The position numbers and the translations under genes were made by a program. From Pseudonocardia sp. (lineage in GTDB: Bacteria > Actinomycetota > Actinomycetes > Mycobacteriales > Pseudonocardiaceae): 64,000 bases of DNA. Below are positions 5,681-31,493 of this stretch, piece by piece (the first letter of the stretch is position 1; each line of letters begins with the position of its first letter). The stretch is from the NCBI GenBank assembly GCA_029263115.1, contig JAJCYC010000269.1, forward strand, positions 930 to 64,929, given 5' to 3'. The notes beneath the pieces are model-generated. The model was not told the origin of the DNA and ran no database searches. It was given only the letters and a program-made list of their open reading frames with translations.

Positions 5681-6832
5681 TCAGGGTGTGGTCGTCGCGC
5701 GCAGGGTGAGCAGGGTGATCTCCGGCGGGGCGCCGACCCGGACCGGGGGACCCCAGAAGCCGACGCCGCGGGTGACGTACAGCCAGGTGCGTCCGACCCG
5801 GGTCAGCCCGGACATCACCGGCTGGTCGAGCAGCACCACGTGGCCCAGCGGCAGGAACTGCCCGCCGTGGGTGTGCCCGGAGATCTGCAGGTCCACATCG
5901 CGGCGCGACACCTGCTCGATCATCACCGGCTGGTGGGCCAGCAGCACCACCGGCCGCGACGGGTCCCGGCCGGCGAGCGCCGTGTCCAGATCCGCGCCGT
6001 GGCCGGGGGTGCCGTAGCCGGCCGCGATCCGGTCGTCGATCCCGGCCAGGTCGAACGTCGGCGCACCCGCACCGGCGCCGAGCCGCCCCACCGTCACCCG
6101 CTCGTTGCGCAGCACCCGCACCCCGACCGTCGGCAGGAACTCGACCCACTCCCGGGCCCCGGAGAAGTACTCGTGGTTGCCGGTGACGAAGTAGGTCGGT
6201 GAGTTGAGCCCGCCGAGCAGCGTGGCGATCGGTCCGAGCTCCTCGACCGACCCGTCCACCAGGTCGCCGACGATCGCCACCAGGTCCGGCCGCTCGGCGT
6301 TGACCCGGGCCACCACATCGGCCAGGAACGGGCGGCGGTTGAACGTGCCCAGGTGGATGTCGGACAGCGCGGCGATGGTCACCCCGTCCAGGGTCGGGTC
6401 CAGCCGGTCCAGGGCGACCTCGCGCCGCTCCAGCCGGATCGAGCGGGCCTCGACCACCCCGTAGCCGACGGTGCCGGCGGCCAGCAGTCCGGCCGCTCCG
6501 CCGATCAGCCGGGCGAGCAGCATCCGCCGCCCGGGATCCGCCCGCCGGCCCATCAGCGCCCGGGGCAGCTCGGCGACCAGCAGCACCAGCGCGAGGTACA
6601 GCGCGAGCACCAGCCAGAGGTACCCGACCCAGGCCAGCACGGTGGCCGGCGTCCCGGTCGGGTCGAGCACCCGGCGGGTGCCGAACGCGGCCAGCGTGGC
6701 CGCGGCCAGCGCCACCACCAGCAGCGCCCCCCACCGGCGGCGGCCCGAGGGCAGGGTGTCGTGCACCAGCCGTCGGTAGAGGTAGAGGTGCAGCAGGAGC
6801 ACCACGGTGATCACCATCAGCAGGAAGCCCAC
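5681..6832 (-). CDS. Membrane-anchored metallophosphoesterase (YkuE-like)
   Basis: 383 aa. N-terminal TM helices, then the motifs LSDIHLG, DLVAIVGDLVDG, VTGNHEYF and ISGHTHGGQ. Confidence 0.85.
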   Translation of the reverse strand: MGFLLMVITVVLLLHLYLYRRLVHDTLPSGRRRWGALLVVALAAATLAAFGTRRVLDPTGTPATVLAWVGYLWLVLALYLALVLLVAELPRALMGRRADPGRRMLLARLIGGAAGLLAAGTVGYGVVEARSIRLERREVALDRLDPTLDGVTIAALSDIHLGTFNRRPFLADVVARVNAERPDLVAIVGDLVDGSVEELGPIATLLGGLNSPTYFVTGNHEYFSGAREWVEFLPTVGVRVLRNERVTVGRLGAGAGAPTFDLAGIDDRIAAGYGTPGHGADLDTALAGRDPSRPVVLLAHQPVMIEQVSRRDVDLQISGHTHGGQFLPLGHVVLLDQPVMSGLTRVGRTWLYVTRGVGFWGPPVRVGAPPEITLLTLRATTTP

Positions 6833-7085
6833 GGACCAATCCTGCCCGCTGCCGCCGACCGGCCGTCGACGCCCGCTCGAGCGCCCGACGCTGTGCCCGG
6901 AATCACCGTTGTGGGTGGTGGGAGATCACGACTCATCAGTAACACCCCGGCCCCTGACGTCGACCAACCAGTCAGAAGATGTCCGACTCTCCCAGTGTCC
7001 AGGAGTGGATCGTGTACCCAGCCAGGAACGTTCCGGCGGCCCACCGGGCCCGCAGGGCGCAGCCGCGTCGAGAGTCGGTGTAGTC

Positions 7086-10000
7086 ATGTCGCTGCCGCTC
7101 TACTACTACGTGCTCGGCACGCCGCTGGGCATCCTCGGCCTGTTCCGCTGGGGTTGCTGGCTGATCCGCCGCATCCCGGCCGTGCTCTACCGGCCGGTCA
7201 CCGGCGACCACCGGCTGCCGATGACCATCGTCGTGCCCACCTACCAGGAGGACCCGCGGATCTTCGCCACCGCGATCGAGTCGTGGCTGGCGAACGGGGT
7301 CGAAGAGGTCATCCTGGTGATCGACGCCTCCGACGCCGTGTGCCAGGAGGTGGCCAGCCGCTACCCGGTGCGGGTGCTGATCACCGATGTGCCCGGCAAG
7401 CGCGACGCGCTGCGCATGGGGTGGAACGCCGCGCGCACCGAGCTGGTCGCGCTGGTCGACTCGGACACGATCTGGGCGCCCGACGTGGCGGCCGAGGTGT
7501 GCAAGCCGTTCGCCGACCCCCGCATCGGCGGTGTCGGCACTCGGCAGAACGTCTACGGCTCCAAGGGCTTCCTGACCCGGATCACCGACATGTTCCTGGA
7601 CCACCGCTACTTCGACGAGAACGCCAGCCAGAGCCTGCTCGGCCAGGCGGTCTCCTGCCTCTCGGGGCGCACCGCAATCTACCGTCGCGCGCTGCTGATG
7701 GAGATCGAGCACGAGTTCATGAACGAGACGTTCTGGGGCGTGCCGTGCCTGTCCGGTGACGACAAGCGGCTCACCACGCTGATCCTGGAGCGCGGGCACA
7801 AGACCTACATGCAGCGCACCGCCCAGGTGTGGTCGACCTTCCCCACCACCTGGAACATCTTCTTCAAGCAGCGGCTGCGCTGGGCCCGCAACACCTGGCG
7901 GTCCGACCTGCGCGCGCTGTCCAAGCCGTGGGTCTGGAAGCACAAGTTCCTCGCCTACACCATGATGGACAAGGGGATCAGCAGCTTCACCCTGCTGGTC
8001 GGACCGGCATTCATGATCTACTCGATCGCGGTCCAGAACTGGGTGTTCTGCGGCATCCTCGCCCTGTGGTGGCAGATCAGCCGGTCGGCGAAGCTCCTGC
8101 CGCACCTGCGCCGCCGCCCGTCGTCGTTCTTCCTGGTGCCGGGATACGTGATGGTGTCCTGGGTGATGGCGCTGATCAAGCTGTACGCCCTGCTCAGCAT
8201 CCGCAAGCAGCGTTGGCTGACCCGCGAGGTGGCCGTCGAGGGTGGCGCCGTGGTGCGTACCAGCCGGCCGGCAGAGCTCGGCGCGGGCGCCCCGCCGGAG
8301 TCGGTGACCGTGGAACTGGCCACCGGCGTGGCCGACAGCGCTGAACTGGTGTGCGTGGGCCCGGCGGCCGCCGAGCGGACGAGCAAGGGCACGGTCGGCG
8401 GCCTGCGGACCACGCTGGTGCTGCTGGTCGTGCTGGCACTGGTGGCGGCCTTCGCCTACCTCGTGCAGCCGGGGCGGACCCTGGTGGCCGCGCCGAAGTT
8501 GGTGTCATCCTTCTCGCTGGCTCCCGCATTGCAGCCCGACGACGGTGGTTCGGACTCCGGTTCCGGTGGTGGTTCGGACGGTGGTTCGGACTCCGGCTCC
8601 GGCGGTGGTTCGGACACCGGCTCCGGCGGTGGCTCCGACGACCCGACCACGTCGCCGCGCCCCACTACGCCGAAGCCGACCAAGGACGCGGCGGCCGAGG
8701 CGCTGAAGAAGCAGCAGAAGGCCGAGGCGAAGGCTCAGGAGCAGGCGGCCAAGCGGGCCCAGGAGGCGGCTCGCGAGCGGGCCGAGGCAGCCGCCGAGGC
8801 CGCAGCCGACCGGGCCCGGGCCCAGGCCCGCTCGGCGAAGGCCTGGGAGTCGCGTGGTCGTCCGGCCCGGATGATCGTGGTGCGCGACTTCGCCGTCGAG
8901 TCGGTGCAGGGCGGCCGTCTCGTGCAGCAGTCGGCCCGTCCGGGCGGCGCGCTGAACCTGGCCGTCATGGACCGGCTGGTGCCGGCCGACTGGCTGGTGA
9001 TGACCGGCGACCAGGCACGGCTGAACTCCGTGGTCACCATGACCCCGGGCAACACCCTGGACATCGGTGGGGTGAAGACCCTGCAGCTGACCGGTGGCCC
9101 GGCGCTGGCCGACGCCTCGTCGATCTACACCGGCAGCGGCCGGATCACCGCACGCGGCGTCACCGTCACCTCGGTGGACCCGGCGACCAACGAGCCGATG
9201 GCCGCAGGCGCCGGCCGGCCGTTCATCGTGGTCGCCCGCGGCGGTGGCATGGACGTCACCGACGCCACCTTCAGTGACCTCGGCACCGCGGTCACCGACC
9301 CGGAGAGCCGCAGCGGCGTGCAGTACAACGAGGGCGCCGGCGGCGTCCTGGAGCGCGCCACCTTCGTCCGCAACACCATCGGTCTGCGGCTGGCCCGCTC
9401 GCAGGGCGTGCGCCTGGACGGCATCACGGTCAAGGAGTCGGTCACCGACGGCCTCGAGCTCGACGGCGACCAGGGCACCACCCTGGCCGGCATCCTGGCC
9501 GAGAACAACGGGGCCAACGGCGTCCTGGTCAAGGGCGAGACCGCCGACCGGGTGCTCTCCGGGATCACCAGCTCCGGCAACGGCGAGTACGGCCTGTCGG
9601 TGGTTGGGCAGCAGAACCCGAAGATCCTCGGTGTGGCCACCGCGGCGGACAAGAACGGTGGTCTCCGGATCAACCGCTCGACCAACGCCCTGGTCGCCGA
9701 CTTCACCGCGACCGACCAGCCGATCGGTGTGTTCACCCACGTCGGCAGCACCGGCCTGGTGTTCGAGCGGGTGCGCATCGAGGGCGGCCGCCGGGGCATG
9801 GTCTTCGAGAAGTCCACCACCGGTGTCCTGGTCAAGGAGAGTTCGGTCGTCGGCGCCCGCTCGATCGGGGTGTCCATCGGTGGCAAGGAGATCACCCTCG
9901 ACCGGCTCACGGTCGACGGTGCCCGGACCGGGGTGCGCATCCAGCGGGGCGCGGACGGGATCCACACCACCGGGCTGACCGTCACCGGTGGCGAGGACGG

Positions 10001-10511
10001 CTTCGTGGCCAACCGGGGCAGCAACCGGGTGGTGCTGCGCGACTTCGTCGCCGAGGGCATCGGCAACGACGCGGTGCGTACCGCGAGCCCGGACGCCCAG
10101 ATCTCCAACGGCCGGATCACCGGCGCCGACACCGGGGTGACCGCCAGCGCGGCGGCCACCGTCGCCGACCTGGCGATCAACCAGGTCGAGACCGGTCTCC
10201 GTTCGCGGGCCGGCGCGACCACGGTCGCCGACCGGGTGTCCATCGCTGCTCTCAGCCTGGGCGTGGACGCGATACCCGGCTCCGTGGTGCAGCTCGGTGA
10301 GTCCCGCTCGCACGCCCTGCAGGCGATTCGCGGGGACGTGCGGTTGGTCGGCTTCAACGACTTGAGCCTGCCGCCGCTGAACGTGCTGGGCGCGATCGGC
10401 GTCCCGCTCGTACTGTTGGCCTTCCTGCTCGAGGTGTTCCACTCGTTCCGCCAGCGTCGGTTCGGCCGTGGCGGCCGCCGGCATCCGCCCACGCTTCAGG
10501 TAGGTGCATGA
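7086..10511 (+). CDS. Processive family-2 glycosyltransferase (hyaluronan-synthase/NodC-like) fused to an extracytoplasmic right-handed beta-helix domain with a C-terminal TM anchor
   Basis: In ORF 6807..10511; likely start ATG 7086 (MSLPLYYYVLG..., TM helix). GT2 motifs: VVPTYQED, LVDSDTIW, SGDDKRLT, QRLRWARN. Several TM helices follow, then a (GGSDSGS)n linker, a Pro/Thr stretch, a K/A/E-rich helix, about 550 aa of PbH1-type repeats (NNGANGVLV, GNGEYGLSV, KNGGLRI...) and a final TM helix LGAIGVPLVLLAFLLEVF. Confidence 0.85.
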   Translation: MSLPLYYYVLGTPLGILGLFRWGCWLIRRIPAVLYRPVTGDHRLPMTIVVPTYQEDPRIFATAIESWLANGVEEVILVIDASDAVCQEVASRYPVRVLITDVPGKRDALRMGWNAARTELVALVDSDTIWAPDVAAEVCKPFADPRIGGVGTRQNVYGSKGFLTRITDMFLDHRYFDENASQSLLGQAVSCLSGRTAIYRRALLMEIEHEFMNETFWGVPCLSGDDKRLTTLILERGHKTYMQRTAQVWSTFPTTWNIFFKQRLRWARNTWRSDLRALSKPWVWKHKFLAYTMMDKGISSFTLLVGPAFMIYSIAVQNWVFCGILALWWQISRSAKLLPHLRRRPSSFFLVPGYVMVSWVMALIKLYALLSIRKQRWLTREVAVEGGAVVRTSRPAELGAGAPPESVTVELATGVADSAELVCVGPAAAERTSKGTVGGLRTTLVLLVVLALVAAFAYLVQPGRTLVAAPKLVSSFSLAPALQPDDGGSDSGSGGGSDGGSDSGSGGGSDTGSGGGSDDPTTSPRPTTPKPTKDAAAEALKKQQKAEAKAQEQAAKRAQEAARERAEAAAEAAADRARAQARSAKAWESRGRPARMIVVRDFAVESVQGGRLVQQSARPGGALNLAVMDRLVPADWLVMTGDQARLNSVVTMTPGNTLDIGGVKTLQLTGGPALADASSIYTGSGRITARGVTVTSVDPATNEPMAAGAGRPFIVVARGGGMDVTDATFSDLGTAVTDPESRSGVQYNEGAGGVLERATFVRNTIGLRLARSQGVRLDGITVKESVTDGLELDGDQGTTLAGILAENNGANGVLVKGETADRVLSGITSSGNGEYGLSVVGQQNPKILGVATAADKNGGLRINRSTNALVADFTATDQPIGVFTHVGSTGLVFERVRIEGGRRGMVFEKSTTGVLVKESSVVGARSIGVSIGGKEITLDRLTVDGARTGVRIQRGADGIHTTGLTVTGGEDGFVANRGSNRVVLRDFVAEGIGNDAVRTASPDAQISNGRITGADTGVTASAAATVADLAINQVETGLRSRAGATTVADRVSIAALSLGVDAIPGSVVQLGESRSHALQAIRGDVRLVGFNDLSLPPLNVLGAIGVPLVLLAFLLEVFHSFRQRRFGRGGRRHPPTLQVGA
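8538..8642 (+). repeat. Coding tandem repeat (Gly/Ser/Asp linker)
   Basis: ggtggttcggac(tcc/acc)ggytccggyggt units encode DDGGSDSGSGGGSDGGSDSGSGGGSDTGSGGGSDD. Confidence 0.85.
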
Positions 10512-12013
10512 TGCGCGCTCCGTTCCGCAGGCTCGCGGTGCTGGCCGTCCCCGCAGTGCTCGCCTTCGGGCTGCTGGCCGCCGGGTGCGCCAAGCCGGAC
10601 GTGCCGTTCACCGCCCGCGAGGTCGCGGCGGCCGGCACCATCGATCCGGCCGGGCCGTGCATCCGGGCCGGCGCGGGCGTGGCCGGCGCCGCCGGTCTCC
10701 AGGTGGCCCCGGCTCCCCAGACCGCACCGGCCGATCCGGCCGCGCAGCCGGCACCGGCCGATCCGGCGGCGCAGCCGGCACCGGCCGATCCGGCCGCCGG
10801 CGCGGTCGAGCAGCCGGCACCGGCGGTGGCGTCGGCGCCTGCCGCACAGCCGGCGCCGGTGCCCCCGTCCACCCCGGCGGTGGCCCGGTTCGCGGCCGGG
10901 GTGATCACCCTCAGCGGTGGCGAGCGGGTCACGCTGGCCGAGCTGGCCCGCGCGGTGCGCAACCCCGAGGCGTTGCGCGAGCTGGCGCCCGGCGAGTGGT
11001 TCCTCGGCGCCGACCTGGTGGTCCTGCCGGGCGCGTCGGTCCGGATCGCCGGGCCCGAGGCCCGCTGGCTGAAGCTGCGCAGCGAGCCCACCCGGTTCGT
11101 CTCGATCAAGATGCTGGGCGGCGGGCTGGACGTCAGCGGCACCTGCGTCACCTCGTGGGACCCCGGCGCGCAGCGCACCGACGTCGACTACAACGACGGC
11201 CGGGCGTTCCTGCTGGCCCGCGACGGCGGCGCGATGACCGTCGACCGGTCCGAGGTCCGCTACCTGGGCAACGCCACCGTCGAGTCCTACGGCCTGTCCT
11301 GGCGGGTGTCCGGCACCCGCGGCGCGCTCACCAACAGCGACGTGTCACACCTGTACTTCGGGCTCTACTCCCACCAGAACGACGGGCTGGTGGTCCGGGA
11401 CAACGAGATCCACGGCAACGTGCTGTACGGCATCGATCCGCACACCGAATCGCGCAACATGATCATCGAGCGCAACGTGGTGCACGACAACGGCAAGCAC
11501 GGGATCATCCTCGCCGAGGACTGTGTGGACAGCGTCATCCGCGACAACATCGTCTACCGCAACGGCCACCACGGGATCGTGCTCTACCAGGGCTCCGACC
11601 GGAACACGGTGGAGAACAACGAGTCGTTCCTGAACACCGTGCAGGGCATCAACGTCAACGAGTCGGCCGACAACATCGTCCGGGGCAACAAGGTCTACCG
11701 GAACAAGGAGTCCGGGATCGGCGTCGGCCAGACGTCGCACCGCAACCTGGTCGACCTCAACCAGATCCGGGACAACAAGCAGGACGGCGTGCGGCTGGTC
11801 AGCGAGGCCGAGCAGAACACCGTGCGCGGCAACACCATCGCCGGCAACGCCCGCTACGGGATCTACATCGACGGCGACGGCGGGTTCGAAGTCACCGACA
11901 ACCTGATCTACGGCAGCCGGATCGGGGTGATGCTCAAGGGCACCGAGCGCCAGCCCGACGGCGACAACTCGATGCGCGACAACCTCGAGGCGGACGTCAA
12001 GGTCCAGTCCTGA
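10508..12013 (+). CDS. Lipoprotein with right-handed beta-helix, AlgE/AlgG-type (mannuronan) C5-epimerase-like
   Basis: The ATG overlaps the upstream stop (ATGA). Signal peptide plus lipobox LLAAGC. Core YGIDPHTESRNMIIERNVVHDNGKHGIILAEDC followed by repeated N-x-V-x-x-N turns. As I recall, this closely resembles the YGFDPHE...AHDNGLDG active-site region of alginate epimerases. Confidence 0.75.
   Translation: MMRAPFRRLAVLAVPAVLAFGLLAAGCAKPDVPFTAREVAAAGTIDPAGPCIRAGAGVAGAAGLQVAPAPQTAPADPAAQPAPADPAAQPAPADPAAGAVEQPAPAVASAPAAQPAPVPPSTPAVARFAAGVITLSGGERVTLAELARAVRNPEALRELAPGEWFLGADLVVLPGASVRIAGPEARWLKLRSEPTRFVSIKMLGGGLDVSGTCVTSWDPGAQRTDVDYNDGRAFLLARDGGAMTVDRSEVRYLGNATVESYGLSWRVSGTRGALTNSDVSHLYFGLYSHQNDGLVVRDNEIHGNVLYGIDPHTESRNMIIERNVVHDNGKHGIILAEDCVDSVIRDNIVYRNGHHGIVLYQGSDRNTVENNESFLNTVQGINVNESADNIVRGNKVYRNKESGIGVGQTSHRNLVDLNQIRDNKQDGVRLVSEAEQNTVRGNTIAGNARYGIYIDGDGGFEVTDNLIYGSRIGVMLKGTERQPDGDNSMRDNLEADVKVQS
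10724..10797 (+). repeat. 27-bp coding tandem repeat (APADPAAQP x about 3)
   Basis: gcaccggccgatccggc(c/g)gcgcagccg is repeated at 10724, 10751 and 10778 (the last copy is partial). Confidence 0.85.
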
Positions 12014-13484: not shown

Positions 13485-14174
13485 ATGCGGATCCTCGTGG
13501 TCGACGACGACCGGGCGGTGCGGGAGTCCTTGCGCCGTTCGCTGGCGTTCAACGGCTACCAGGTGGAGCTGGCCCACGACGGACAGGCCGCGATGGCGGT
13601 GATCGACTCGGCCCGACCGGACGCGATGGTGCTCGACGTGATGATGCCCCGGCTGGACGGGCTGGAGGTGTGCCGGCGGTTGCGCGGGGCCGGCGACGAC
13701 CTGCCGATCCTGGTGCTCACCGCCCGGGACGCGGTGTCCGACCGGGTGGCCGGGCTGGACGCAGGCGCGGACGACTACCTGCCCAAGCCGTTCGCCCTGG
13801 AGGAGCTGCTGGCCCGGCTGCGGGCCCTGCTGCGTCGGCGGGTGCCCCCCGGTGGCGTCGAGCGGCCGAACGAGACGCTGCGATTCGCCGACCTGTCGCT
13901 GGACCCGGACACCCGCGACGTGCTGCGGGCCGACCGCCGGATCACCCTCACCCGGACGGAGTTCTCCCTCCTGGAGCTGCTGCTGGCCAATCCCCGCCGG
14001 GTGCTCAGTCGGGGCCGCATCCTCGAGGACGTGTGGGGCTACGACTTCCCGACCACCGGCAACGCGCTGGAGGTCTACATCGGCTACCTGCGCCGCAAGA
14101 CCGAGGAGGCCGGCGAGGCCCGGTTGATCCACACCGTGCGCGGAGTCGGCTACGTCCTACGCGAGGGCCAGTGA
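13485..14174 (+). CDS. mprA: OmpR-family response regulator MprA
   Basis: [36 protein letters not shown]...; receiver plus winged-helix domains. Synteny mprA-mprB-pepD. Confidence 0.85.
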
Positions 14175-14190
14175 GCCACCCGCCACCCAC

Positions 14191-14251
14191 GCGGTCGAAT
14201 GAGCGGGCCCGTTGGCCCCCGGTGGCGCCCCGGGCGGTCGAATGAGCGGGC
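14191..14251 (+). repeat. Diverged 43-bp tandem duplication carrying the mprB start (18-nt identical cores)
   Basis: gcggtcgaatgagcgggc occurs at 14191-14208 and at 14234-14251. Each copy contains an ATG, and only the second ATG (14242) is in the kinase frame. Confidence 0.85.
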
Positions 14252-15687
14252 TTGTGCCGCGGGTGGGCCGGCCCCCCCGCCAGTTGTCGCTGCGGATGCG
14301 GATCGCGTTGTTGGCCGCGGTGATGGTGGGGTTGGCGGCGGCGGGGGTGTCGGCGGCCGCGTTCTACGTGGTGCGCGGCGCGCTGTACGCCGACCTCGAC
14401 GACCAGCTGCGCCAGCGGGCCGCCACCGTGGTGGCCAGCGGCGTCGGACAGCGGCCGCAGACCCTGCCGGACGCGGCGCTCTACGGCTCCGACATCCGGG
14501 TCGAGCTGGTGGACGCCCAGGGCGGCGGGTTCCTGATCCGCAACATGCCGCCGCCCCCGGTGGGCCGCGAGGAGCTGGCGGTGGCGGCCTCGCAGGCGGT
14601 CACCTCGCTGCGCACCGTGCACGACATGCGGGTGCTCGCGGTGCCGGCCGGCGGTGGCAGCAACCTGGCGCTGATCCTGGCCCAGCCGATGCACCCGGTG
14701 CGGCACACGCTGGCCGGGTTGTCGGCGGTGCTGCTGCTGGTCGGCGGGGCCGGGGTGGTGCTGGCCGCGGTGGCCGGCGCCACGGTGGCCGGCGCGGGGC
14801 TGCGCCCGGTGCAGCGGCTGACCGCGGCCACCGAGCGGGTGGCCAGCACCGGCGACCTGACCCCGATCCCGGTCAGCGGCAGCGACGAGCTGGCCCGCCT
14901 CACGCACAGCTTCAACGCGATGCTCGGCGCGGTCGCGGCCTCCCAGGAGCAGCAGCGCCGGCTGGTCGCCGACGCCGGCCACGAGCTGCGCACCCCGCTG
15001 ACGTCGCTGCGCACCAACGTCGAGCTGCTGGTCGCGGCCGGCGACGGCGCCGCGGCCGGCGTCGGGGCGTCAGCGCGGGACGGTGCCGAGGTGGAGGACG
15101 GGGCCCGGTCGGGCGGCTCGCTGTCCGAGACCGACCGCAAGGAGATCTACGACGACGTGCGGGCCCAGATCGAGGAGCTGACCACGCTGGTCGGCGACCT
15201 CGTCGAGCTGGCCAGGGCGGACGCCCCGGAGACCGGGCACGAGCCGGTGGAGTTGACCGAGGTGGTGGAGCGCGCGCTGCAACGCGCCCGCCGCCGGGTC
15301 GCCGACGTGCGCTTCGAGACCGCGTTACGACCGTGGGTGGTGTCCGGGGACTCCACCGCGCTGGAGCGGGCGGTGCTCAACCTGCTGGACAACGCGGCAA
15401 AGTGGAGCCCGCCGGGTGGCCTGGTCCGGATCGACCTGACCCTGGACGGTCCGGGCTGGTCGGTGCTGCGGGTGCTCGACGAGGGACCCGGCATCGCCGA
15501 GACCGACCTGCCGCTGGTGTTCGACCGGTTCTACCGGGCCACCGAGGACCGGTGCCGGCCGGGATCCGGTCTCGGGTTGGCGATCGTCAAGCAGGTCGCC
15601 GAGCGGCACGGCGGCACGGTACGTGCCGGGCGCGGACCCTCCGGCGGTGCGCTGCTGGCACTGCGCCTGCCCGGCGGCCCCGGATGA
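14242..15687 (+). CDS. mprB: Sensor histidine kinase MprB
   Basis: Frame of ORF 14212..15687. TM, HAMP, H-box ADAGHELRTPLTSL, N/G boxes LLDNAAKWSP and DEGPGI...GSGLGLAIV. The start is taken at ATG 14242 (MSGLVPRVGRPPRQLSLRMRIALLAAV). Confidence 0.85.
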   Translation: MSGLVPRVGRPPRQLSLRMRIALLAAVMVGLAAAGVSAAAFYVVRGALYADLDDQLRQRAATVVASGVGQRPQTLPDAALYGSDIRVELVDAQGGGFLIRNMPPPPVGREELAVAASQAVTSLRTVHDMRVLAVPAGGGSNLALILAQPMHPVRHTLAGLSAVLLLVGGAGVVLAAVAGATVAGAGLRPVQRLTAATERVASTGDLTPIPVSGSDELARLTHSFNAMLGAVAASQEQQRRLVADAGHELRTPLTSLRTNVELLVAAGDGAAAGVGASARDGAEVEDGARSGGSLSETDRKEIYDDVRAQIEELTTLVGDLVELARADAPETGHEPVELTEVVERALQRARRRVADVRFETALRPWVVSGDSTALERAVLNLLDNAAKWSPPGGLVRIDLTLDGPGWSVLRVLDEGPGIAETDLPLVFDRFYRATEDRCRPGSGLGLAIVKQVAERHGGTVRAGRGPSGGALLALRLPGGPG

Positions 15688-15770
15688 CCGATCGCCCGAC
15701 CGCGTGAGCATTTGTGCGGGCCGCGCCCTACGCTGGGGGCTTCCCCGATTCGTTGAACCACGGTGAGGGT

Positions 15771-17546
15771 ATGGCCCACGACGAGACGCAGCCGAACACG
15801 GACGCCGAGCACGATTCCCTGGATCCCCGGGGCCGGGCCGGCACGCCGTCGAGGGGCAACCCCGGGATCGACCCGGCATTCGCGCCGGCCGGACGACCCG
15901 CGTCGGCCCCGTCGCCCTGGGCCCGATCGACCCCGGCCGCCGGACAGCCCGGCGCGCCCGTGAGCCCCGGTGACCGGTCCGTTTCCGACCCGGCGACGCC
16001 GCGGCCCGACGAGCGCTCCACATCCGGCTACCCGCCCGCGCCGGCCGGCCGGTCCGGCGGCCCGGGCGTGGCTTCCCCCCAGGAGCAGTCCCCCGGTGAG
16101 GAAGCGCCCACCGGCGCGGGCGCCGCGGCTGCGTCGCCCGCTCCGGCAGCGGGTCACGCCGGTGCCGGCGACCAACCGGCCGGGGCGCCCTACCCGGGTA
16201 CGCCGACCTACCCCGGCTCCTCCGGCCTTCCCGGCGCGCCGACCTACCCGGGTGCCTCGCCGTACGCGGCACCGTCCTACCCCGGTTCGTCGTCGTACCC
16301 CGGTGCACCTTCCTACCCGGGTGCGCCGTCCTACCCCGGGTCGCCGTCGTACCCCGGGTCGCCGTCCACTCCGCCGGGCGGGCAACCCACGGCCACGCTC
16401 ACCGGCCAGCAACCGGCCGCCGCGTCCGGGCCGGAGAAGCCCCGGAGTCCGCGGTCGATGCTGCTCGTGGTGGTGGCCGCGCTGCTCGCGGCGTTGCTCG
16501 GTGGTGGCATCGGTGGCGTGCTCGGCTACCAGTTGGCCGGTGGGCGCAGCCTGGGCAGCGTGCTCGGCAGCCCGCTGCCCGGTCTCGACTCGGCGTCCGC
16601 GCCGCAGACCGAGGTGGAGCGGGTCGCCCGCGACGTCCTGCCCAGCGTCGTGCAGTTGCGGGTGCGCTCGGGCGAGCGTTCGGGCGCCGGCTCGGGCATG
16701 GTGCTCAGCCCGGACGGCCTGATGCTGACCAACAACCACGTGATCGAGGCCGCGGCCGGCGGCGCCGGGCAGATCACCGCGCTGTTCCAGGACGGTAGGT
16801 CGGCGCCGGTGCAGATCATCGGACGCGACCCGAGCTCCGACCTTGCGGTGGTCAAGGCGCAGGACGTCACCGGCCTGGCGCCGATCACGCTCGGCAACTC
16901 CGACGCGGTCCGAGTGGGGCAGAACGTGGTGGCGATCGGCTCACCGCTGGGCCTGGGCGGCACGGTGACCACGGGCATCGTCAGCGCCCTGAACCGGGCG
17001 GTCTCCGTCGGCGGCGGGCGTGACCCCAACACCGGGGCGGTGCTCAATGCGATCCAGACCGACGCGGCGATCAACCCCGGCAACTCCGGCGGGCCGCTGG
17101 TGGACATCGAGGGCCGGCTGATCGGCATCAACAGCGCCATCGCCACCGTCGGCGGCGGCGCCGGGGACGAGGCGGGCTCGGTCGGGCTCGGTTTCGCCAT
17201 CCCGATCAACCAGGCCAAGCGGATCGCCGAGGAGCTGGAACGGGCCGGTCAGGCGACCAAGCCGATCCTCGGCGTCATGGTGATCACCTCCTCCCGGCTC
17301 GCCCCGCTCACCGAGCCGCCCGGTGCCCGGCTGACCGACGTGACCCCGGAGAGCCCCGCGGCGAAGGCCGGGCTCAAGGCGGGCGACGTCGTGGTGCGGG
17401 TCAACGACCGGACCGTCACCTACGGCGACGAGCTGGTGGCGGCGATCCGGTCACTGGCCCCGGGCCAGACGGTCACCCTGCAGCTCGCCGACGGGCGGGC
17501 GCTGTCCGCGGTGCTCGACGGTCAACCGGTGCCGGCCACGAAGTGA
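15771..17546 (+). CDS. pepD: HtrA/PepD-type trypsin-like serine protease with PDZ domain and long Pro/Tyr-rich N-terminal region
   Basis: In ORF 15714..17546; start ATG 15771. TM helix, GSGMVLSPDGLMLTNNHV, GNSGGPLVD and a C-terminal PDZ (KAGLKAGDVVVRVNDR). It lies downstream of mprAB, as in mycobacteria. Confidence 0.85.
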   Translation: MAHDETQPNTDAEHDSLDPRGRAGTPSRGNPGIDPAFAPAGRPASAPSPWARSTPAAGQPGAPVSPGDRSVSDPATPRPDERSTSGYPPAPAGRSGGPGVASPQEQSPGEEAPTGAGAAAASPAPAAGHAGAGDQPAGAPYPGTPTYPGSSGLPGAPTYPGASPYAAPSYPGSSSYPGAPSYPGAPSYPGSPSYPGSPSTPPGGQPTATLTGQQPAAASGPEKPRSPRSMLLVVVAALLAALLGGGIGGVLGYQLAGGRSLGSVLGSPLPGLDSASAPQTEVERVARDVLPSVVQLRVRSGERSGAGSGMVLSPDGLMLTNNHVIEAAAGGAGQITALFQDGRSAPVQIIGRDPSSDLAVVKAQDVTGLAPITLGNSDAVRVGQNVVAIGSPLGLGGTVTTGIVSALNRAVSVGGGRDPNTGAVLNAIQTDAAINPGNSGGPLVDIEGRLIGINSAIATVGGGAGDEAGSVGLGFAIPINQAKRIAEELERAGQATKPILGVMVITSSRLAPLTEPPGARLTDVTPESPAAKAGLKAGDVVVRVNDRTVTYGDELVAAIRSLAPGQTVTLQLADGRALSAVLDGQPVPATK

Positions 17547-18555: not shown

Positions 18556-19322
18556 CGCTCACCCACCGGCACGCCGAGCAGCGCGCGGACCCGTTCGGCG
18601 AACCGACCGTGCGGTGCGCCGGCGGCGACCGCGTGGGCGTCCGCCGCGGTGTCGACGTCCCGGTGGGTGGCTGCGGTGTGCACCCGCAGGCCGGCGGCGA
18701 GCAGCGCCCGGCGGGTCAGCTCGCCGGTGTCCGGGCGCGAGGTGGGCACCCCGGCGATCAGCCCGGCGAGCCGGGGGTCGCGCAGACCCAGCGCCCACCA
18801 CCCGCCGTCCGAGGCCGGGCCGAGCACCGCGTCCGTGCCCGGCACCGTGCCGGTACCGCGCCGGAAGGCTGGTCCCGCGGGCTCGAGCAGCGGGGCCAGT
18901 GCCGCGGCCAGCGCCGGCGCGTCCAGCTGCGGGGTGTCCATCCCGATCTGCAGCACCACCGCGCCCGGAGCCCGGCGGGCCACCTCGGCGTGCGCCGACG
19001 CGATGCGCCGCCCGAGGCCCTCGCCGCGCTGGGCGAACACCTCGACCCCGGCCAGGGCACGGCGTAGCTCGGGGGCGCGCGCGGCGTCGGCCAGCTCGCC
19101 GGTCCAGGCCACCATCACCCGGGTGCCGGGCAGCGCGTCCCGGCCGAGCGTGGCGGCCGCGTCCAGGGTGTCCAGCAGCGAGGCGGCGGCGATCTCGGCG
19201 GCCTCGTCCGGTGTGGCCGGGGGGCACAACCGGGTCTTCGCCAGTCCGGCGACCGGCGCCTTGGCCAGCACCAGCAGCACCGGCGGACCCGGTTCGGCAC
19301 CCGGTCGCGGGCCGGGGTTCAC
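18549..19322 (-). CDS. DUF2064 / TIGR04282-like (CofC-like fold) glycosyltransferase-associated protein
   Basis: In ORF 18549..19631. The GTG start at 19322 overlaps the GT2 stop (GTGA). PVLLVLAKAPVAGLAKTRLCPPATPDEAAEIAAASLLDTL...DGGWWALGL is typical of DUF2064. Confidence 0.7.
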   Translation of the reverse strand: MNPGPRPGAEPGPPVLLVLAKAPVAGLAKTRLCPPATPDEAAEIAAASLLDTLDAAATLGRDALPGTRVMVAWTGELADAARAPELRRALAGVEVFAQRGEGLGRRIASAHAEVARRAPGAVVLQIGMDTPQLDAPALAAALAPLLEPAGPAFRRGTGTVPGTDAVLGPASDGGWWALGLRDPRLAGLIAGVPTSRPDTGELTRRALLAAGLRVHTAATHRDVDTAADAHAVAAGAPHGRFAERVRALLGVPVGERC

Positions 19323-19990
19323 CGCGAGCCCACCAGGACCGCGGACATGTCGCGGACCGCCCGGGCGGTGCCCCGGACCGACCCGGACACCTTGGAGCGC
19401 CCGCCGGTCCGGGGCCGGTACTCGACCTCGATCTCGTGCAGCCGCCAGCCCGCGGCGCCGGCCCGTACCAGCAGCTCCAGCGGATAGCCGAAGGCCCGGT
19501 CGGTCACCCCCAGGTCGAGCAGCCCGGTGCGGCGCGCGGCGCGTACCGGGGCGATGTCGCGCACCGGGATCCCGCGCCGGCGCAGCAGCACCGCGATCAA
19601 CGCGTTGCCCAGCCGGGCGTGCCACGGCCATGCGCCGCGCCCGACCGGCACCCGCCGGCCCACCGCCATCTCGGCCCGGCCGTCGGCCACCGCGGCGACC
19701 AGCTCGGGCAGCACCTCGGGGGGCAGCGACCCGTCGGCGTCGATGACGCAGACGAACTCGGCGGTGGCGGCGAGCAGGCCGGCGTGCACCGCGGCGCCGT
19801 AGCCGCGTCGGGGCTCACGCACCACGAGCGCGCCCAGCGCCTCGGCGACCGCCACCGTGTCGTCGGTGCTGCCGTTGTCGACCACGATCGGCCGGTAGCC
19901 GGCGGGCAGCCGACCGAGCACGCCGGGCAGTGCCTCCGCCTCGTCGAGGCAGGGCAGCACCACGTCCGCAGCCGGGGGAGCGGGGATCAC
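19319..19990 (-). CDS. Family-2 glycosyltransferase (polyprenyl-phosphate sugar synthase-like)
   Basis: 223 aa: VVLPCLDEAEALPGVL...IVVDNGSTDDT...VIDADGS...RSKVSG; Dpm1/GtrB-like. Confidence 0.8.
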   Translation of the reverse strand: MIPAPPAADVVLPCLDEAEALPGVLGRLPAGYRPIVVDNGSTDDTVAVAEALGALVVREPRRGYGAAVHAGLLAATAEFVCVIDADGSLPPEVLPELVAAVADGRAEMAVGRRVPVGRGAWPWHARLGNALIAVLLRRRGIPVRDIAPVRAARRTGLLDLGVTDRAFGYPLELLVRAGAAGWRLHEIEVEYRPRTGGRSKVSGSVRGTARAVRDMSAVLVGSR

Positions 19991-20127
19991 GGTGCGGAAC
20001 CTTACGGGTGCGCCTCGTGGTGGTCTGCTTACGGACCGATGACATCACCCCTACGGGGCGTCATGTTCGGGACTGACCCCGCCCGGGCGGCCTAGCCTCC
20101 GCGAATGGGAAAGCGGGAGGAGTCGAC

Positions 20128-25109: not shown

Positions 25110-25178
25110 GCCGGCACAGTAGTGCGGCCACCACGGCGCGGGGCCGACCCGCTCCCGCCGACCCACTACGGTAATCAC

Positions 25179-25679: not shown

Positions 25680-25682
25680 GTC

Positions 25683-30411: not shown

Positions 30412-30556
30412 CCGCAGCCCTCCCCGCCAATGAGCACGCCCGCCGGCCCCGCGCGGCCGCCGATACCACCCACAATGGTCCGTCCGCGGCGGTCAGCGGC
30501 CATTGACGGTGGCGTGAGTGCCCGGTGACCGGCGGTCACGGCTAGGCTCGCCGCTC

Positions 30557-31486: not shown

Positions 31487-31493
31487 CAACGCG

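What the first reader, a model, noticed from the sequence alone, without database searches (positions are those of the whole stretch)
7086..12013. Candidate undescribed synthase-dependent polysaccharide system: HAS/NodC-like GT2 fused to a doubly anchored beta-helix, coupled to an AlgE/AlgG-type epimerase-like lipoprotein
Seen in the sequence: one 1141-aa protein has four parts.
- An N-terminal processive GT2 carries the class-I hyaluronan/chitin-synthase motif set (DSDT, GDDKRLT, QRLRW).
- Several TM helices follow.
- A Gly/Ser/Asp repeat plus a K/A/E-rich helix forms a linker.
- About 550 aa of parallel beta-helix repeats end in a final TM helix.
The beta-helix should therefore sit outside the membrane, tethered at both ends. 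Its stop overlaps (ATGA) the start of a lipoprotein whose core YGIDPHTESRNMIIERNVVHDNGKHGII resembles, as I recall, the catalytic region of alginate C5-epimerases.

Inference: this is a two-gene module that polymerises, exports and modifies a polymer at the sugar C5 position, possibly a uronic-acid-containing, glycosaminoglycan-like one. I do not know of a characterised actinobacterial system with this fused architecture. Flanking envelope genes (L,D-transpeptidase, membrane metallophosphoesterase) fit a cell-surface role.
Basis: partly seen in the sequence, partly recalled or inferred. Interest (0 to 1): 0.72.

Follow-up and report, generated by a model that had tools for sequence, protein, structure and literature searches.

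The report
Actinobacterial polyuronate synthase with epimerase-like partners
Two overlapping genes in a Pseudonocardia-like genome encode a hyaluronan-synthase-like membrane enzyme fused to a catalytically dead copy of an alginate-epimerase fold, plus a lipoprotein copy that keeps the catalytic residues; the pair belongs to a widespread, uncharacterised system that probably makes and modifies an acidic, alginate-like surface polysaccharide.

Summary
Gene A (7086-10511, 1141 aa) is a HAS-like processive GT2 followed by a TM helix, linkers, a 500-aa beta-helix and a last TM helix. Its stop overlaps (ATGA) gene B (10508-12013), a lipoprotein whose closest sequence and fold relatives are AlgG and AlgE4.

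New findings:
- The fused beta-helix is a paralogue of B (hhalign E 7e-17) that has lost the catalytic His and Tyr. It is still under strong purifying selection, so I read it as a pseudo-epimerase scaffold.
- B carries a fixed variant active site: DPHT, and Glu where AlgG has Arg345 and AlgE4 has Asp178.
- In 78 related genome loci the usual operon is a short nucleotide-sugar 6-dehydrogenase, then GT2, then the membrane beta-helix, then B. GT2 and beta-helix are separate genes in 71 loci. The window copy is a fused variant without the dehydrogenase.
- In Chloroflexota, CPR bacteria and Acidimicrobiia the GT2 is fused directly to an intact DPHD epimerase domain. PL7 alginate lyases join the cluster in three loci, which represent two gene clusters.

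Most likely this is a synthase-dependent polyuronate system, possibly mannuronan or alginate-like. No experimental characterisation was found. The flanking envelope genes are not conserved partners.

The parts
7086..10511 (+). Gene A, 1141 aa. HAS-like GT2 synthase fused to a doubly membrane-anchored AlgG-fold beta-helix.
   Evidence: ORF and translation. Pfam. PDB and Foldseek hits to HAS. AF2 model. The orthologue L006 carries the same fused ORF, with dN/dS 0.18.
7098..7187 (+). N-terminal TM helix of A (aa 5-34).
   Evidence: AF2 model, helix 5-34. Conserved PLGIxGxWRWxxW in the alignment.
7221..7895 (+). Cytoplasmic GT-A catalytic domain (aa 46-270) with DSDT (125-128), CLSGRTAIYR (191-200), GDDKRLT (224-230) and QRLRW (262-266).
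   Evidence: Pfam PF13641, 5.6e-33 over aa 46-269. Invariant columns in 75 homologues. Motif counts.
7851..8228 (+). Interface and TM helices forming the putative translocation channel (aa 256-370), and the conserved W377-x-T379-R380 loop.
   Evidence: Model helices 256-370. Aligns to CvHAS residues 175-450. WxTR is present in 116 of 120 homologues. Reading it as a HAS-like gating loop rests on my own knowledge.
8397..8462 (+). TM helix (aa 438-459) that carries the chain from the cytoplasm to the outside. In split loci it is the signal anchor of a separate gene.
   Evidence: Hydropathy 2.69. Model helix 438-459. L007 split gene begins MTRTNRAWSPRRLAAAVVLALAV.
8540..8640 (+). Gly/Ser/Asp repeat linker (12- and 36-nt tandem repeats), disordered.
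   Evidence: TRF. pLDDT below 50 for aa 461-544.
8700..8852 (+). Single long Lys/Ala/Glu-rich helix (aa 539-589). Possibly a stalk or an oligomerisation helix.
   Evidence: Model helix 539-589. Function is inferred.
8868..10367 (+). Extracytoplasmic right-handed beta-helix (aa 595-1094). A paralogue of B and AlgG that lacks the catalytic His and Tyr (LDG-DQGT at 792-798 in place of LYGIDPHT). Invariant R711, D795, T798, R822, N832 and D855.
   Evidence: hhalign against the B family: probability 98.8%, E 7.3e-17. Foldseek to AlgG, 5e-11. No DPH motif in any of 71 relatives. Conservation. dN/dS 0.11.
10383..10460 (+). C-terminal TM helix (aa 1100-1125), followed by a basic cytoplasmic tail.
   Evidence: Hydropathy 2.49. 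Model. Conserved in 60 of 60 relatives.
10508..12013 (+). Gene B, 501 aa. Lipoprotein with an AlgG/AlgE-type beta-helix. Its start overlaps A's stop (ATGA).
   Evidence: An identical protein, P0121, exists in NCBI without a functional name. dN/dS 0.26 against L006.
10508..10588 (+). Signal peptide and lipobox of B (…FGLLAAGC, Cys27).
   Evidence: Sequence. Hydropathy 2.38. Model helix 8-25.
10724..10797 (+). 27-nt tandem repeat encoding PADPAAQPA copies in the disordered tether of B.
   Evidence: TRF: 2.7 copies, 95% match. pLDDT below 50 for aa 65-104.
11426..11518 (+). Catalytic turns of B: Y307-G-I-D310-P-H312-T313 … H331-G-I-I-L-A-E337.
   Evidence: Alignments to AlgG and AlgE4. Invariant in 52 to 120 homologues. 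Covariation table.

Best explanation
The two genes are a fused, dehydrogenase-less copy of a conserved actinobacterial operon for a synthase-dependent acidic polysaccharide (polyuronate).

Proposed mechanism, with the basis for each step:
1. The HAS-like GT2 part of A polymerises a nucleotide-activated uronic acid at the cytoplasmic face and threads the chain through its own TM channel. The fold and motifs are shown. The activity and the sugar are inferred. In most sister loci the uronic acid comes from the short 6-dehydrogenase encoded just upstream. Here it would have to come from a paralogous locus.
2. The beta-helix fused to the synthase is held over the exit by TM helices on both sides. 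It is a former epimerase domain that has lost its catalytic His and Tyr but stays strongly conserved. It most likely binds and guides the nascent chain, as a scaffold or pseudo-enzyme, much like the non-catalytic secretion role described for AlgG. Homology and loss of residues are shown. The role is inferred.
3. Lipoprotein B is tethered by a roughly 100-aa flexible linker. It keeps Tyr307, Asp310 and His312, and has Glu337 at the position of AlgE4 Asp178 and AlgG Arg345. It abstracts the C5 proton of uronate residues in the polymer and gives C5-epimerisation, or chain cleavage. A bound divalent cation, rather than an arginine, probably shields the carboxylate. This step is inferred from the AlgE4 and pectate-lyase precedent.

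The leading candidate for the polymer is mannuronan or an alginate-like chain. A GlcA-containing polymer is the main alternative.
For: GT2 part.
- The HAS-class motifs are invariant in 75 homologues.
- Best PDB sequence and fold matches are hyaluronan synthases, followed by BcsA and chitin synthases.

Topology.
- TM helices lie at aa 438-459 and 1100-1125, followed by a basic tail.
- The anchors are conserved in relatives.

Beta-helix of A.
- hhalign against the B family gives E 7.3e-17. Asp795 and Thr798 are retained, while His becomes Gly797 and Tyr becomes Asp793.
- None of 71 relatives has a DPH motif.
- dN/dS is 0.11.

Protein B.
- AlgG is the top hit by sequence and by fold.
- Y307/D310/H312/E337 align with AlgE4 Y149/D152/H154/D178. 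These are the AlgE catalytic residues (PMC7385640).
- AlgG uses Arg to shield the carboxylate, whereas AlgE4 and pectate lyases use Ca2+ (PMC4444821).
- The DPHT plus Glu combination is fixed in all 120 closest homologues. Across the wider set it covaries: DPHD with K/R in 70 of 80, DPHT/S with E in 169 of 174.

Uronate polymer.
- A short NDP-sugar 6-dehydrogenase lies directly upstream in 60 of 78 loci. It is also there in Acidimicrobiia, Chloroflexota and CPR loci.
- It matches the NDP-sugar dehydrogenase model at 1.2e-54, and UGDH and GMD structures.
- PL7 alginate lyase lies in the cluster in L001/L002 and L081.
- A Pel9A-like gene lies downstream in L083.

Wider family and literature.
- 78 of 106 long GT2-beta-helix fusions carry an intact YGxDPH motif.
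- Brown-algal papers state that the alginate-specific genes have actinobacterial or CPR nearest relatives, and that algal GMDs are 315-320 aa (PMC8307928; PMC11468063; PMC4782291).
Against: - No dehydrogenase or lyase is present in the 64-kb window. This copy could be idle or could have changed function.
- The dehydrogenase cannot be assigned to GDP-mannose or UDP-glucose. Its best hits are archaeal UGDH enzymes.
- The GT2 is closest to UDP-sugar-using HAS. No Alg8 family was among its matches in any search.
- B scores far below the AlgG equivalog cut-off, 137 against 700 bits.
- B lacks the fourth residue of the DPHD motif that all known active epimerases carry as Asp or Glu, and it lacks Arg345.
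- The beta-helix domains are net acidic (B mean -19.6, AlgG fragment +7). That is awkward for binding a polyanion unless cations mediate the contact.
- In two sampled sets of 10 distant GT2 relatives I found fungal proteins and no brown-algal ones.
- There is no experimental datum for any member.
Confidence: 0.6

Rival explanations
1. Same machinery, but the polymer contains glucuronic acid. It would be HA-like, cellubiuronic-like or a glucuronan, made from UDP-GlcA as in the streptococcal has operon or the pneumococcal type 3 locus. B would convert GlcA to IdoA or cleave the chain.
For: The GT2 is closest to hyaluronan synthases. The dehydrogenase scores best against the AglM and Pyrobaculum UGDH enzymes. 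JGI names homologues 'hyaluronan synthase' and 'UDPglucose 6-dehydrogenase'. Fungal GT2 homologues share 36-42% identity. To my knowledge, the PL7 family also includes glucuronan lyases.
Against: Every characterised enzyme of the AlgG/AlgE fold acts on mannuronan. Dehydrogenases this short, lacking the C-terminal domain, have been characterised biochemically only as brown-algal GDP-mannose dehydrogenases (PMC4782291; Tenhaken 2011, from memory). The phycological literature links actinobacterial homologues to alginate genes.
Confidence: 0.25
2. B is a lyase (depolymerase) that trims or releases chains, not an epimerase. The DPHT plus Glu active site would mark a switch from re-protonation to beta-elimination.
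For: Epimerases and lyases share the first two catalytic steps, and AlgE7 performs both reactions in one site (PMC4444821). An 'alginate epimerase/lyase' (8jaz) is among B's fold matches. B lacks the acidic fourth residue of DPHD/E. Ca2+-dependent pectate lyases use acidic residues at the neutralising position.
Against: The clusters that carry a dedicated PL7 lyase split both ways: L081 also keeps a B-like gene, while L001/L002 has a PL7 lyase and no B-like gene. B retains Tyr307, which in AlgG holds the proton-donating water. The closest relatives by sequence and fold are pure epimerases.
Confidence: 0.3
3. The window copy is a diverged paralogue with a different, non-uronate role. Examples would be a neutral cell-wall glycan synthase with beta-helix binding proteins, linked to the neighbouring L,D-transpeptidase and the MprAB-like stress system.
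For: The dehydrogenase is missing here and in the nearest orthologues L005 and L006. The synteny MPE-A-B-Ldt-RR-HK is shared with L006. B lacks the carboxylate-neutralising Arg.
Against: All GT2 motifs, and B's active site, are identical to those of paralogues that do sit next to a dehydrogenase. Pseudonocardia genomes usually carry 2-3 loci, so a dehydrogenase can act in trans. C5 proton abstraction by this fold requires a C6 carboxylate. The flanking genes are not conserved in the other 77 loci.
Confidence: 0.1

Closest known systems
Pseudomonas/Azotobacter alginate system (AlgD, Alg8/Alg44, AlgG, AlgL; secreted AlgE1-7)
   Same: It combines a nucleotide-sugar 6-dehydrogenase, a membrane GT2 synthase, a beta-helix C5-epimerase acting on the polymer and, in some loci, a lyase. 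B's nearest sequence and fold relative is AlgG, and B's catalytic residues map onto AlgE4 Y149/D152/H154/D178. AlgG also has a non-catalytic scaffold role, as I propose for A's beta-helix.
   Different: The synthase is HAS-like rather than Alg8-like. There is no Alg44 PilZ co-polymerase, and no AlgK/AlgE/AlgX/AlgIJF. The host has a single membrane. The dehydrogenase lacks the C-terminal domain. B has DPHT and Glu instead of DPHD and Arg, and no RTX R-modules. One epimerase paralogue is a TM-anchored pseudo-enzyme.
Class I hyaluronan synthases (Chlorella virus HAS, vertebrate HAS, streptococcal HasA with HasB) and the pneumococcal type 3 synthase Cps3S with Cps3D
   Same: These are the best structural and sequence matches to the GT2 part, sharing the GDD(K/R)xLT and Q(R/Q)xRW motifs. 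A single polypeptide polymerises and translocates. In Gram-positive bacteria it is paired with a 6-dehydrogenase gene (operon organisation from my own knowledge).
   Different: Identity is only about 20-22%. There is one N-terminal TM helix instead of two. An extracytoplasmic beta-helix is fused to the synthase or encoded next to it. An epimerase-like partner is present. The product is unknown.
Brown-algal alginate pathway (short GMD, unidentified GT2 mannuronan synthase, ManC5-E family)
   Same: Algal GMDs are 315-320 aa with GxGxVG and GGxCLPKDV motifs, like the 300-330 aa operon dehydrogenase (GSGVVG, GGVCLPKDT). The literature places the nearest bacterial ManC5-E relatives in Actinobacteria and the nearest GMD relative in a CPR bacterium. 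These are the same phyla that carry this operon.
   Different: No direct sequence comparison with algal proteins was possible here. Algal ManC5-Es all have DPHD, while B has DPHT. No algal homologue of the GT2 was seen among the 20 distant relatives whose names I looked up.
GT2-epimerase fusion proteins of Chloroflexota, CPR (Roizman-, Daviesbacteria, WWE3) and Acidimicrobiia (uncharacterised database entries)
   Same: They have the same GT2 (40-60% identity), the same upstream short dehydrogenase and the same fold in the fused domain.
   Different: In those proteins the fused beta-helix keeps YGxDPHD plus K/R (68 of 106 long proteins) and often carries a LysM domain. In the window the fused domain is catalytically dead, and the intact copy is a separate lipoprotein.

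Membership tests
Processive membrane-embedded GT2 synthases (HAS / chitin / cellulose synthase class) | GT-A domain with a DxD motif, a (G/T)(D/E)D catalytic motif and Q(Q/R)xRW. | tested here: met
   DSDT at aa 125-128, GDDKRLT at 224-230, QRLRW at 262-266. These columns are invariant in 75 homologues.
Processive membrane-embedded GT2 synthases (HAS / chitin / cellulose synthase class) | Interface and TM helices after the GT domain that form a translocation channel, with overall fold similarity to solved synthases. | tested here: met
   AF2 model helices 256-370. Foldseek: CvHAS 1.6e-17 with TM-score (target) 0.60, XlHAS1, BcsA, Chs1.
Processive membrane-embedded GT2 synthases (HAS / chitin / cellulose synthase class) | Demonstrated processive polymerisation coupled to secretion. 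| not testable with these tools
   Needs in-vitro synthesis in proteoliposomes, or genetics.
NodC chitooligosaccharide synthase (TIGR04242 equivalog) | Score above the curated cut-off of 550 bits. | tested here: not met
   114.8 bits.
AlgG mannuronan C5-epimerase (NF038177 equivalog) | Score above the curated cut-off of 700 bits. | tested here: not met
   B scores 137 bits, E 7.5e-40, covering model positions 118-397 of 519.
AlgG mannuronan C5-epimerase (NF038177 equivalog) | Right-handed beta-helix fold with AlgG as the nearest structure. | tested here: met
   Foldseek 4nk6, E 3.1e-19, TM-score (target) 0.65.
AlgG mannuronan C5-epimerase (NF038177 equivalog) | Complete DPHD motif, preceded by the Tyr equivalent to Tyr314. 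| tested here: not met
   B has Y307-G-I-D-P-H-T. The final Asp is Thr in 118 of the 120 closest homologues. Tyr, Asp and His are present.
AlgG mannuronan C5-epimerase (NF038177 equivalog) | Arg345, which neutralises the substrate carboxylate. | tested here: not met
   Aligned to Glu337 in B. Role of the Arg from PMC4444821.
AlgE-type secreted epimerase A-module | Catalytic residues Tyr149, Asp152, His154 and Asp178. | tested here: met
   BLASTP aligns B Y307/D310/H312/E337 to these residues, with Glu in place of Asp. The AlgE4 sequence was recalled from memory, but its numbering reproduces the published residues (PMC7385640).
AlgE-type secreted epimerase A-module | Ca2+-binding RTX R-modules, type I secretion and Ca2+ dependence. 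| tested here: not met
   No RTX or R-module hit in Pfam. B is a lipoprotein. Ca2+ dependence cannot be tested here.
Canonical alginate biosynthesis operon (alg8/alg44/algK/algE/algX/algL/algIJF) | Alg8-type synthase with an Alg44 PilZ co-polymerase, plus outer-membrane export and acetylation genes. | tested here: not met
   None of these families was found in A, in B, or among the 24 window ORFs scanned against Pfam.
Nucleotide-sugar 6-dehydrogenase (sister loci only, not in the window) | Rossmann GxGxxG motif, central domain, catalytic Cys in GGxC(L/F)PKD, and a C-terminal NDP-sugar-binding domain. | tested here: inconclusive
   The L007 protein has GSGVVG and GGVCLPKDT. TIGR03026 scores 185.6 bits against a cut-off of 189.8, covering positions 2-298 of 413, so the C-terminal domain is absent. 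The short form matches the length of brown-algal GMD.
Bacterial lipoprotein | Signal peptide ending in a lipobox Cys. | tested here: met
   B residues 1-27 read MMRAPFRRLAVLAVPAVLAFGLLAAGC. Hydropathy. A loose lipobox-like pattern, which may over-call, matches 91 of 120 homologues. Lipidation itself was not tested.

The most novel reading that the evidence does not exclude
This operon family (short dehydrogenase, HAS-like GT2, AlgG-fold domains) may be a second, Alg8-independent route to mannuronan or alginate. It is spread through Actinomycetota, Chloroflexota and CPR bacteria. Its GT2 would be the prototype of the still unidentified mannuronan synthase of brown algae, whose GMD and ManC5-E genes the literature traces to these same phyla. 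The Pseudonocardia form would add a TM-anchored pseudo-epimerase and a new cation-dependent (DPHT plus Glu) epimerase active site.
Probability: 0.25. Interest if true: 0.85.

Novelty: new variant of a known kind. Interest (0 to 1): 0.66.

Why it matters
Synthase-dependent acidic exopolysaccharides with polymer-level C5-epimerisation are known experimentally only from Pseudomonas and Azotobacter alginate, and from brown algae.

A distinct machinery in Gram-positive and CPR bacteria would widen the known range of alginate-like polymers. Its features are a HAS-like synthase, a truncated dehydrogenase, and epimerase domains fused to the synthase or tethered beside its exit. Such bacteria are plausible unknown producers of the 'alginate-like exopolymers' reported from soils and sludge.

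It would also supply new epimerase or lyase active-site chemistry for tailoring alginates. It offers a clear case of an enzyme domain turning into a membrane-anchored scaffold. And it would make the actinobacterial origin of brown-algal alginate synthesis, including the missing mannuronan synthase, testable in culturable Streptomyces and Pseudonocardia.

Tried and rejected
- Dehydrogenase or PL7 lyase in the window. tblastn across all 64 kb found nothing. Pfam on 20 further window ORFs found only core genes: MarR, nitroreductase, RR/HK/HtrA, a GalU-like protein, MoeA and PMT.
- Functional link to the flanking L,D-transpeptidase or phosphoesterase. Rejected: they are syntenic only in L006.
- B as a NosD-like protein or a lyase by family assignment. 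Rejected as the primary classification. NosD scores 45.9 bits against a cut-off of 300, and the lyases among the fold matches have much weaker E-values than AlgG. Lyase chemistry is kept as a rival.
- 'The missing Arg345 means B is inactive'. Rejected. The position is Glu, matching AlgE4 Asp178, and it covaries with the Thr of DPHT in 169 of 174 sequences.
- The A fusion as a frameshift artefact. Rejected. Independent genome loci L005, L006, L010 and L030 have the same fused ORF.
- Direct test of the brown-algal link. The representative search of the GT2 domain returned 150 hits. Looking up names for 20 distant ones gave fungi (Spizellomyces, Gaertneriomyces, Physocladia, Podila, Rhizopogon, Sporobolomyces) and metagenomes, but no brown alga. 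This is inconclusive, because only the top 150 of 4731 hits are visible.
- The third homologue search, on the dehydrogenase, listed only close Pseudonocardia-type relatives, so it did not discriminate GDP-Man from UDP-Glc.
- Primary papers (Wolfram 2014, Rozeboom 2008, Tenhaken 2011) are not held in the library. I used reviews and later papers instead.
- My first regular expression for the Arg345-equivalent position was mis-anchored. It was corrected.

Full report
**1. Observation**

The window is about 72-78% G+C. The ORF 6807-10511 has its homologue-supported ATG at 7086 and encodes 1141 aa. The ORF 10508-12013 encodes 501 aa. Both show the third-position G+C expected of real genes (0.91-0.96). 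The junction reads GCATGATG, so A's stop codon (TGA, 10509-10511) overlaps B's start (ATG, 10508-10510).

- DSDT at aa 125-128, GDDKRLT at 224-230 and QRLRW at 262-266.
- Hydrophobic helices after the GT domain.
- A Gly/Ser/Asp repeat, and a Lys/Ala/Glu-rich segment.
- A long beta-helix, and a final hydrophobic helix followed by RQRRFGRGGRRH.

Database matches for A:
- Pfam finds GT2 families (PF13641, 5.6e-33) and Beta_helix/NosD.
- The best solved relatives by sequence are hyaluronan synthases (7sp7, 8e-18).
- An AlphaFold2 model built on 75 homologues (mean pLDDT 80.8) gives this layout: TM 5-34, GT domain 46-250, interface/TM helices 256-370, TM 438-459, a disordered linker, one 50-residue helix 539-589, beta-helix 595-1094, TM 1100-1125.
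- Foldseek ranks Chlorella virus and Xenopus HAS first (1.6e-17), followed by BcsA and chitin synthases. The best beta-helix match is AlgG (5e-11).

Protein B has a signal helix and a lipobox (LLAAGC). It has a disordered Pro/Ala linker that contains a 27-nt tandem repeat. Its beta-helix covers aa 125-500, modelled at pLDDT 87.6. Its nearest relatives are alginate C5-epimerases:
- NCBIfam AlgG model, 7.5e-40.
- PDB AlgG, 1.3e-23, and AlgE4, 1e-9.
- Foldseek AlgG, 3e-19, followed by AlgE4 and AlgE6.

**2. Wider context**

The fused architecture is not unique. A search of 5.8 billion proteins returned 285 relatives at E ≤ 1e-10 among the scored candidates. The 120 best are listed, and most of those carry both GT2 and Beta_helix/NosD domains. 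They come from Pseudonocardia, Acidimicrobiales, Chloroflexota and CPR phyla (Daviesbacteria, Roizmanbacteria, WWE3), and many also have a LysM domain.

The exhaustive representative search finds 289 clusters (at 50% identity) with E ≤ 1e-30 to the GT2 domain alone.

A scan of one genome per species found 372 relatives. The best 78 loci are Pseudonocardia (often 2-3 loci per genome), Streptomyces and Actinocrinis.

The nearest orthologue is L006 (Pseudonocardia sp. MAG SAW77). It has the same neighbours: phosphoesterase, A, B, L,D-transpeptidase, response regulator, histidine kinase. The window therefore very probably comes from a Pseudonocardia.

**3. The canonical operon**

I mapped the parts of A, together with B and candidate partner genes, onto all loci by tblastn. 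The usual gene order is a short nucleotide-sugar 6-dehydrogenase, then GT2, then a membrane beta-helix protein, then the B-like protein. Frequencies come:

| Feature | Present / testable loci |
|---|---|
| Dehydrogenase directly upstream | 60 / 78 |
| Membrane beta-helix downstream | 68 / 69 |
| B-like gene downstream | 50 / 63 |

- Four genomes carry two complete operons in tandem (L016, L021, L047, L054).
- GT2 and the membrane beta-helix are separate, usually 4-nt-overlapping ORFs in 71 loci.
- They are fused only in the window, in L005, L006, L010 and L030, and in L001/L002.
- In the split form the second gene starts with its own signal-anchor helix (L007).
- The window therefore holds a fused variant that lacks the dehydrogenase.
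- The fusion is not an assembly artefact, because independent genome loci share it.
- Neither a dehydrogenase nor a lyase occurs anywhere in the 64 kb.

**4. The dehydrogenase and the lyases**

The upstream protein is about 300-330 aa (for example L007). It matches the nucleotide-sugar dehydrogenase model over positions 2-298 of 413, so the C-terminal sugar-nucleotide domain is absent. It has GSGVVG and the catalytic-Cys motif GGVCLPKDT. Its best solved relatives are an archaeal UDP-glucose dehydrogenase (2.8e-41) and Pseudomonas GDP-mannose dehydrogenase AlgD (6.4e-36). Sequence alone does not decide the substrate.

The same short gene sits directly upstream of the GT2 fusion in Acidimicrobiia, Chloroflexota, Roizmanbacteria and Daviesbacteria.

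A PL7 'alginate lyase 2' follows the synthase in L001/L002. It opens the cluster in Actinocrinis L081 (PF08787, 2e-33). A Pel9A-like beta-helix gene follows in the Roizmanbacteria locus L083.

A 6-dehydrogenase, C5-epimerase-like domains and uronate lyases together point to a polyuronate product.

**5. The two beta-helices**

In the alignment of 75 fused proteins, the consensus of the C-terminal domain reads YGLDPHDDSN…NGxHGIIxSKR, which is itself AlgG-like. Of 106 long fusion proteins, 78 carry YGxDPH.

The window's fused domain does not carry it, and neither does the corresponding domain in any of 71 Pseudonocardia or Streptomyces loci. It is nevertheless homologous to B. Profile-profile comparison gives 98.8% probability and E 7.3e-17 over 313 columns. 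In that alignment, A's LDG-DQGT (aa 792-798) lies over B's LYGIDPHT:

| Position in B | Residue in A |
|---|---|
| Tyr307 | Asp793 |
| Asp310 | Asp795 (retained, invariant) |
| His312 | Gly797 |
| Thr313 | Thr798 (retained, invariant) |

According to the review PMC4444821, the His of the DPHD motif abstracts the C5 proton and the preceding Tyr holds the proton-donating water. A's beta-helix therefore cannot run the canonical reaction.

It is not decaying, however. Against L006, dN/dS is 0.11 for this domain, compared with 0.18 for GT2, 0.28 for the linkers and 0.26 for B. Residues R711, D795, R822, N832 and D855 are invariant. Both membrane anchors are conserved.

I conclude that it is a pseudo-epimerase kept for a non-catalytic role. 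The most plausible role is holding and guiding the emerging chain. This parallels the structural role reported for AlgG in Pseudomonas (my own knowledge).

**6. B's active site**

B keeps Tyr307, Asp310 and His312. It differs from AlgG in two places: DPHD becomes DPHT, and Arg345 aligns with Glu337.

A BLASTP alignment with the AlgE4 A-module places Y307/D310/H312/E337 on Y149/D152/H154/D178. I recalled the AlgE4 sequence from memory, but its numbering reproduces the published catalytic residues. Those four are the catalytic residues of the AlgE epimerases (PMC7385640).

The review states that AlgG and pectin lyases use an arginine to shield the carboxylate, whereas AlgE4 and pectate lyases probably use bound Ca2+. 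B therefore looks AlgG-like in overall sequence but AlgE-like at the neutralising position.

The variant is fixed. All 120 closest homologues have DPHT or DPHS together with HGI(I/V)LAE. Across free and fused forms the two positions covary:

| Motif | Residue at the Arg345-equivalent position |
|---|---|
| DPHD | K or R in 70 of 80; the rest Q or M followed by R |
| DPHT/S | E in 169 of 174 |

The two combinations never cross. These counts are not phylogenetically independent, but the pattern occurs in several architectures.

Streptomyces B-type proteins keep DPHD. The beta-helix domains are net acidic (B mean -19.6), which again suggests cation-mediated binding of a polyanion.

Whether the DPHT plus Glu site epimerises or cleaves cannot be decided in silico.

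**7. Mechanism proposed**

- The GT2 part uses a nucleotide-uronic acid in the cytoplasm and translocates the chain. The fold and motifs are shown. The activity is inferred.
- The chain emerges under the doubly anchored pseudo-epimerase. The topology is shown by conserved anchors, by the positive-inside tail and by the exported paralogue. The guiding role is inferred.
- Lipoprotein B is tethered by a flexible linker of about 100 residues and acts on the polymer at C5. This is inferred from conserved catalytic residues.
- In this locus the activated sugar must be supplied in trans.

I put 0.6 on this overall picture. Within it, I split roughly evenly between a mannuronan or alginate-like polymer and a GlcA-containing one.

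**8. Comparison with known systems, and novelty**

The logic matches alginate biosynthesis (AlgD, Alg8/44, AlgG, AlgL), but the parts differ:
- The synthase is HAS-class.
- There is no PilZ co-polymerase and no outer-membrane export or acetylation genes.
- The dehydrogenase is truncated.
- The epimerase domains are membrane-tethered.

It also resembles the Gram-positive pairs hasA/hasB and cps3S/cps3D (synthase plus dehydrogenase), but those lack epimerase-like partners.

The membership tests show that A is not NodC and B is not an AlgG equivalog.

Literature searches found no experimental work on this family. Phycological papers do touch on it:
- They state that the alginate-specific genes of brown algae (GMD, mannuronan synthase, ManC5-E) were acquired from an actinobacterium (PMC8307928).
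- They report that the closest bacterial ManC5-E homologues are actinobacterial, at about 30% identity, and that the best GMD hit is a Woesebacteria protein at 40% (PMC11468063).
- They note that algal GMDs are only 315-320 aa (PMC4782291).
- They note that the algal mannuronan synthase is an unidentified GT2 unlike Alg8.

The operon family described here fits those remarks, but I could not compare algal sequences directly. The 20 distant GT2 relatives whose names I looked up were fungal or metagenomic.

Automated annotation calls the proteins 'glycosyltransferase', 'hyaluronan synthase', 'right-handed parallel beta-helix repeat-containing protein' and, once, 'mannuronan 5-epimerase'.

I classify the finding as a new variant of a known kind: a synthase-dependent polyuronate system with polymer-level modification.

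**9. Verdict**

Its interpretation is largely right about the nature of the parts and the uronic-acid idea. It needs correction on several points: the unit (an operon that normally includes a dehydrogenase), the fusion (a minority state), the identity of the fused beta-helix (an inactivated paralogue of B), the non-canonical active site of B, and the relevance of the flanking genes.

Interest is 0.66.

Noticed in passing
window 13485-17546, 30518-32720, 45475-47094: The pair sits in a conserved actinobacterial core region. It contains an OmpR-type response regulator, a HAMP histidine kinase and an HtrA/PDZ protease (MprAB-PepD-like). Further on are a GalU-like nucleotidyltransferase, MoeA and a protein O-mannosyltransferase. 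The order recalls Mycobacterium Rv0981-Rv1002c (from my own knowledge).
   Followed up: partly
window 8540-8640 and 10724-10797: Both linkers are encoded by tandem DNA repeats: 12/36-nt Gly-Ser-Asp units in A, and 27-nt PADPAAQPA units in B. Protein lengths differ from the 93%-identical orthologue L006 (A 1141 against 1163 aa; B 501 against 522 aa), and the repeat-encoded linkers, which have the highest dN/dS (0.28), are the likely site of the difference; the indels were not located.
   Followed up: partly
L016, L021, L047, L054: Two complete dehydrogenase-GT2-betahelix-B operons lie head to tail in four Pseudonocardia genomes. Many genomes have 2-3 dispersed copies, so this is an expanding paralogous family.
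   Followed up: partly
B residues 313 and 337 (window 11444-11446 and 11516-11518) and homologues: There is strict covariation between the fourth residue of DPHx and the Arg345-equivalent position: D with K/R, and T/S with E. It occurs in both free and GT2-fused epimerase-like domains.
   Followed up: yes
P0438, P0451, P0466, P0484, P0494, P0500 (hits of window 7086-8285): Fungal GT2 proteins share 36-42% identity with the whole GT2 domain. They come from the chytrids Spizellomyces, Gaertneriomyces and Physocladia, from Podila, and from the basidiomycetes Rhizopogon and Sporobolomyces. They are unnamed 'glycosyltransferase family 2' proteins, possibly Cps1/HAS-like.
   Followed up: no
L083 9007-10119; L086 8805-12204: In CPR loci the GT2-epimerase fusion is followed by further beta-helix proteins. 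One is Pel9A-like (pectate-lyase-like) and the others are NosD/DUF1565-like.
   Followed up: no
L061, L062, L068, L058 (beta-helix ORFs running to about 14.2-14.4 kb, or 6.9 kb in L058): A subgroup of Pseudonocardia loci lacks both the dehydrogenase and B. In L061, L062 and L068 the stop-to-stop frame holding the membrane beta-helix runs well past the beta-helix match, to about 14.2-14.5 kb, so the protein appears to be considerably longer; in L058 the open frame is too long to be read as the gene. Identity to the window's domain is 32-35%. Their extra C-terminal region was not examined.
   Followed up: no
window 24042-26135 (-) and 24120-25679 (+): Two long overlapping ORFs on opposite strands both show high GC3. 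The minus-strand ORF carries an NAD-dependent epimerase/dehydratase domain only in its C-terminal half (aa 345-682), so the true gene start is uncertain.
   Followed up: no
window 19319-20044 (-) and 20128-20862 (+): A small soluble-type GT2 (PF00535) is divergent from a second OmpR-family response regulator. No link to the A/B pair is evident.
   Followed up: no
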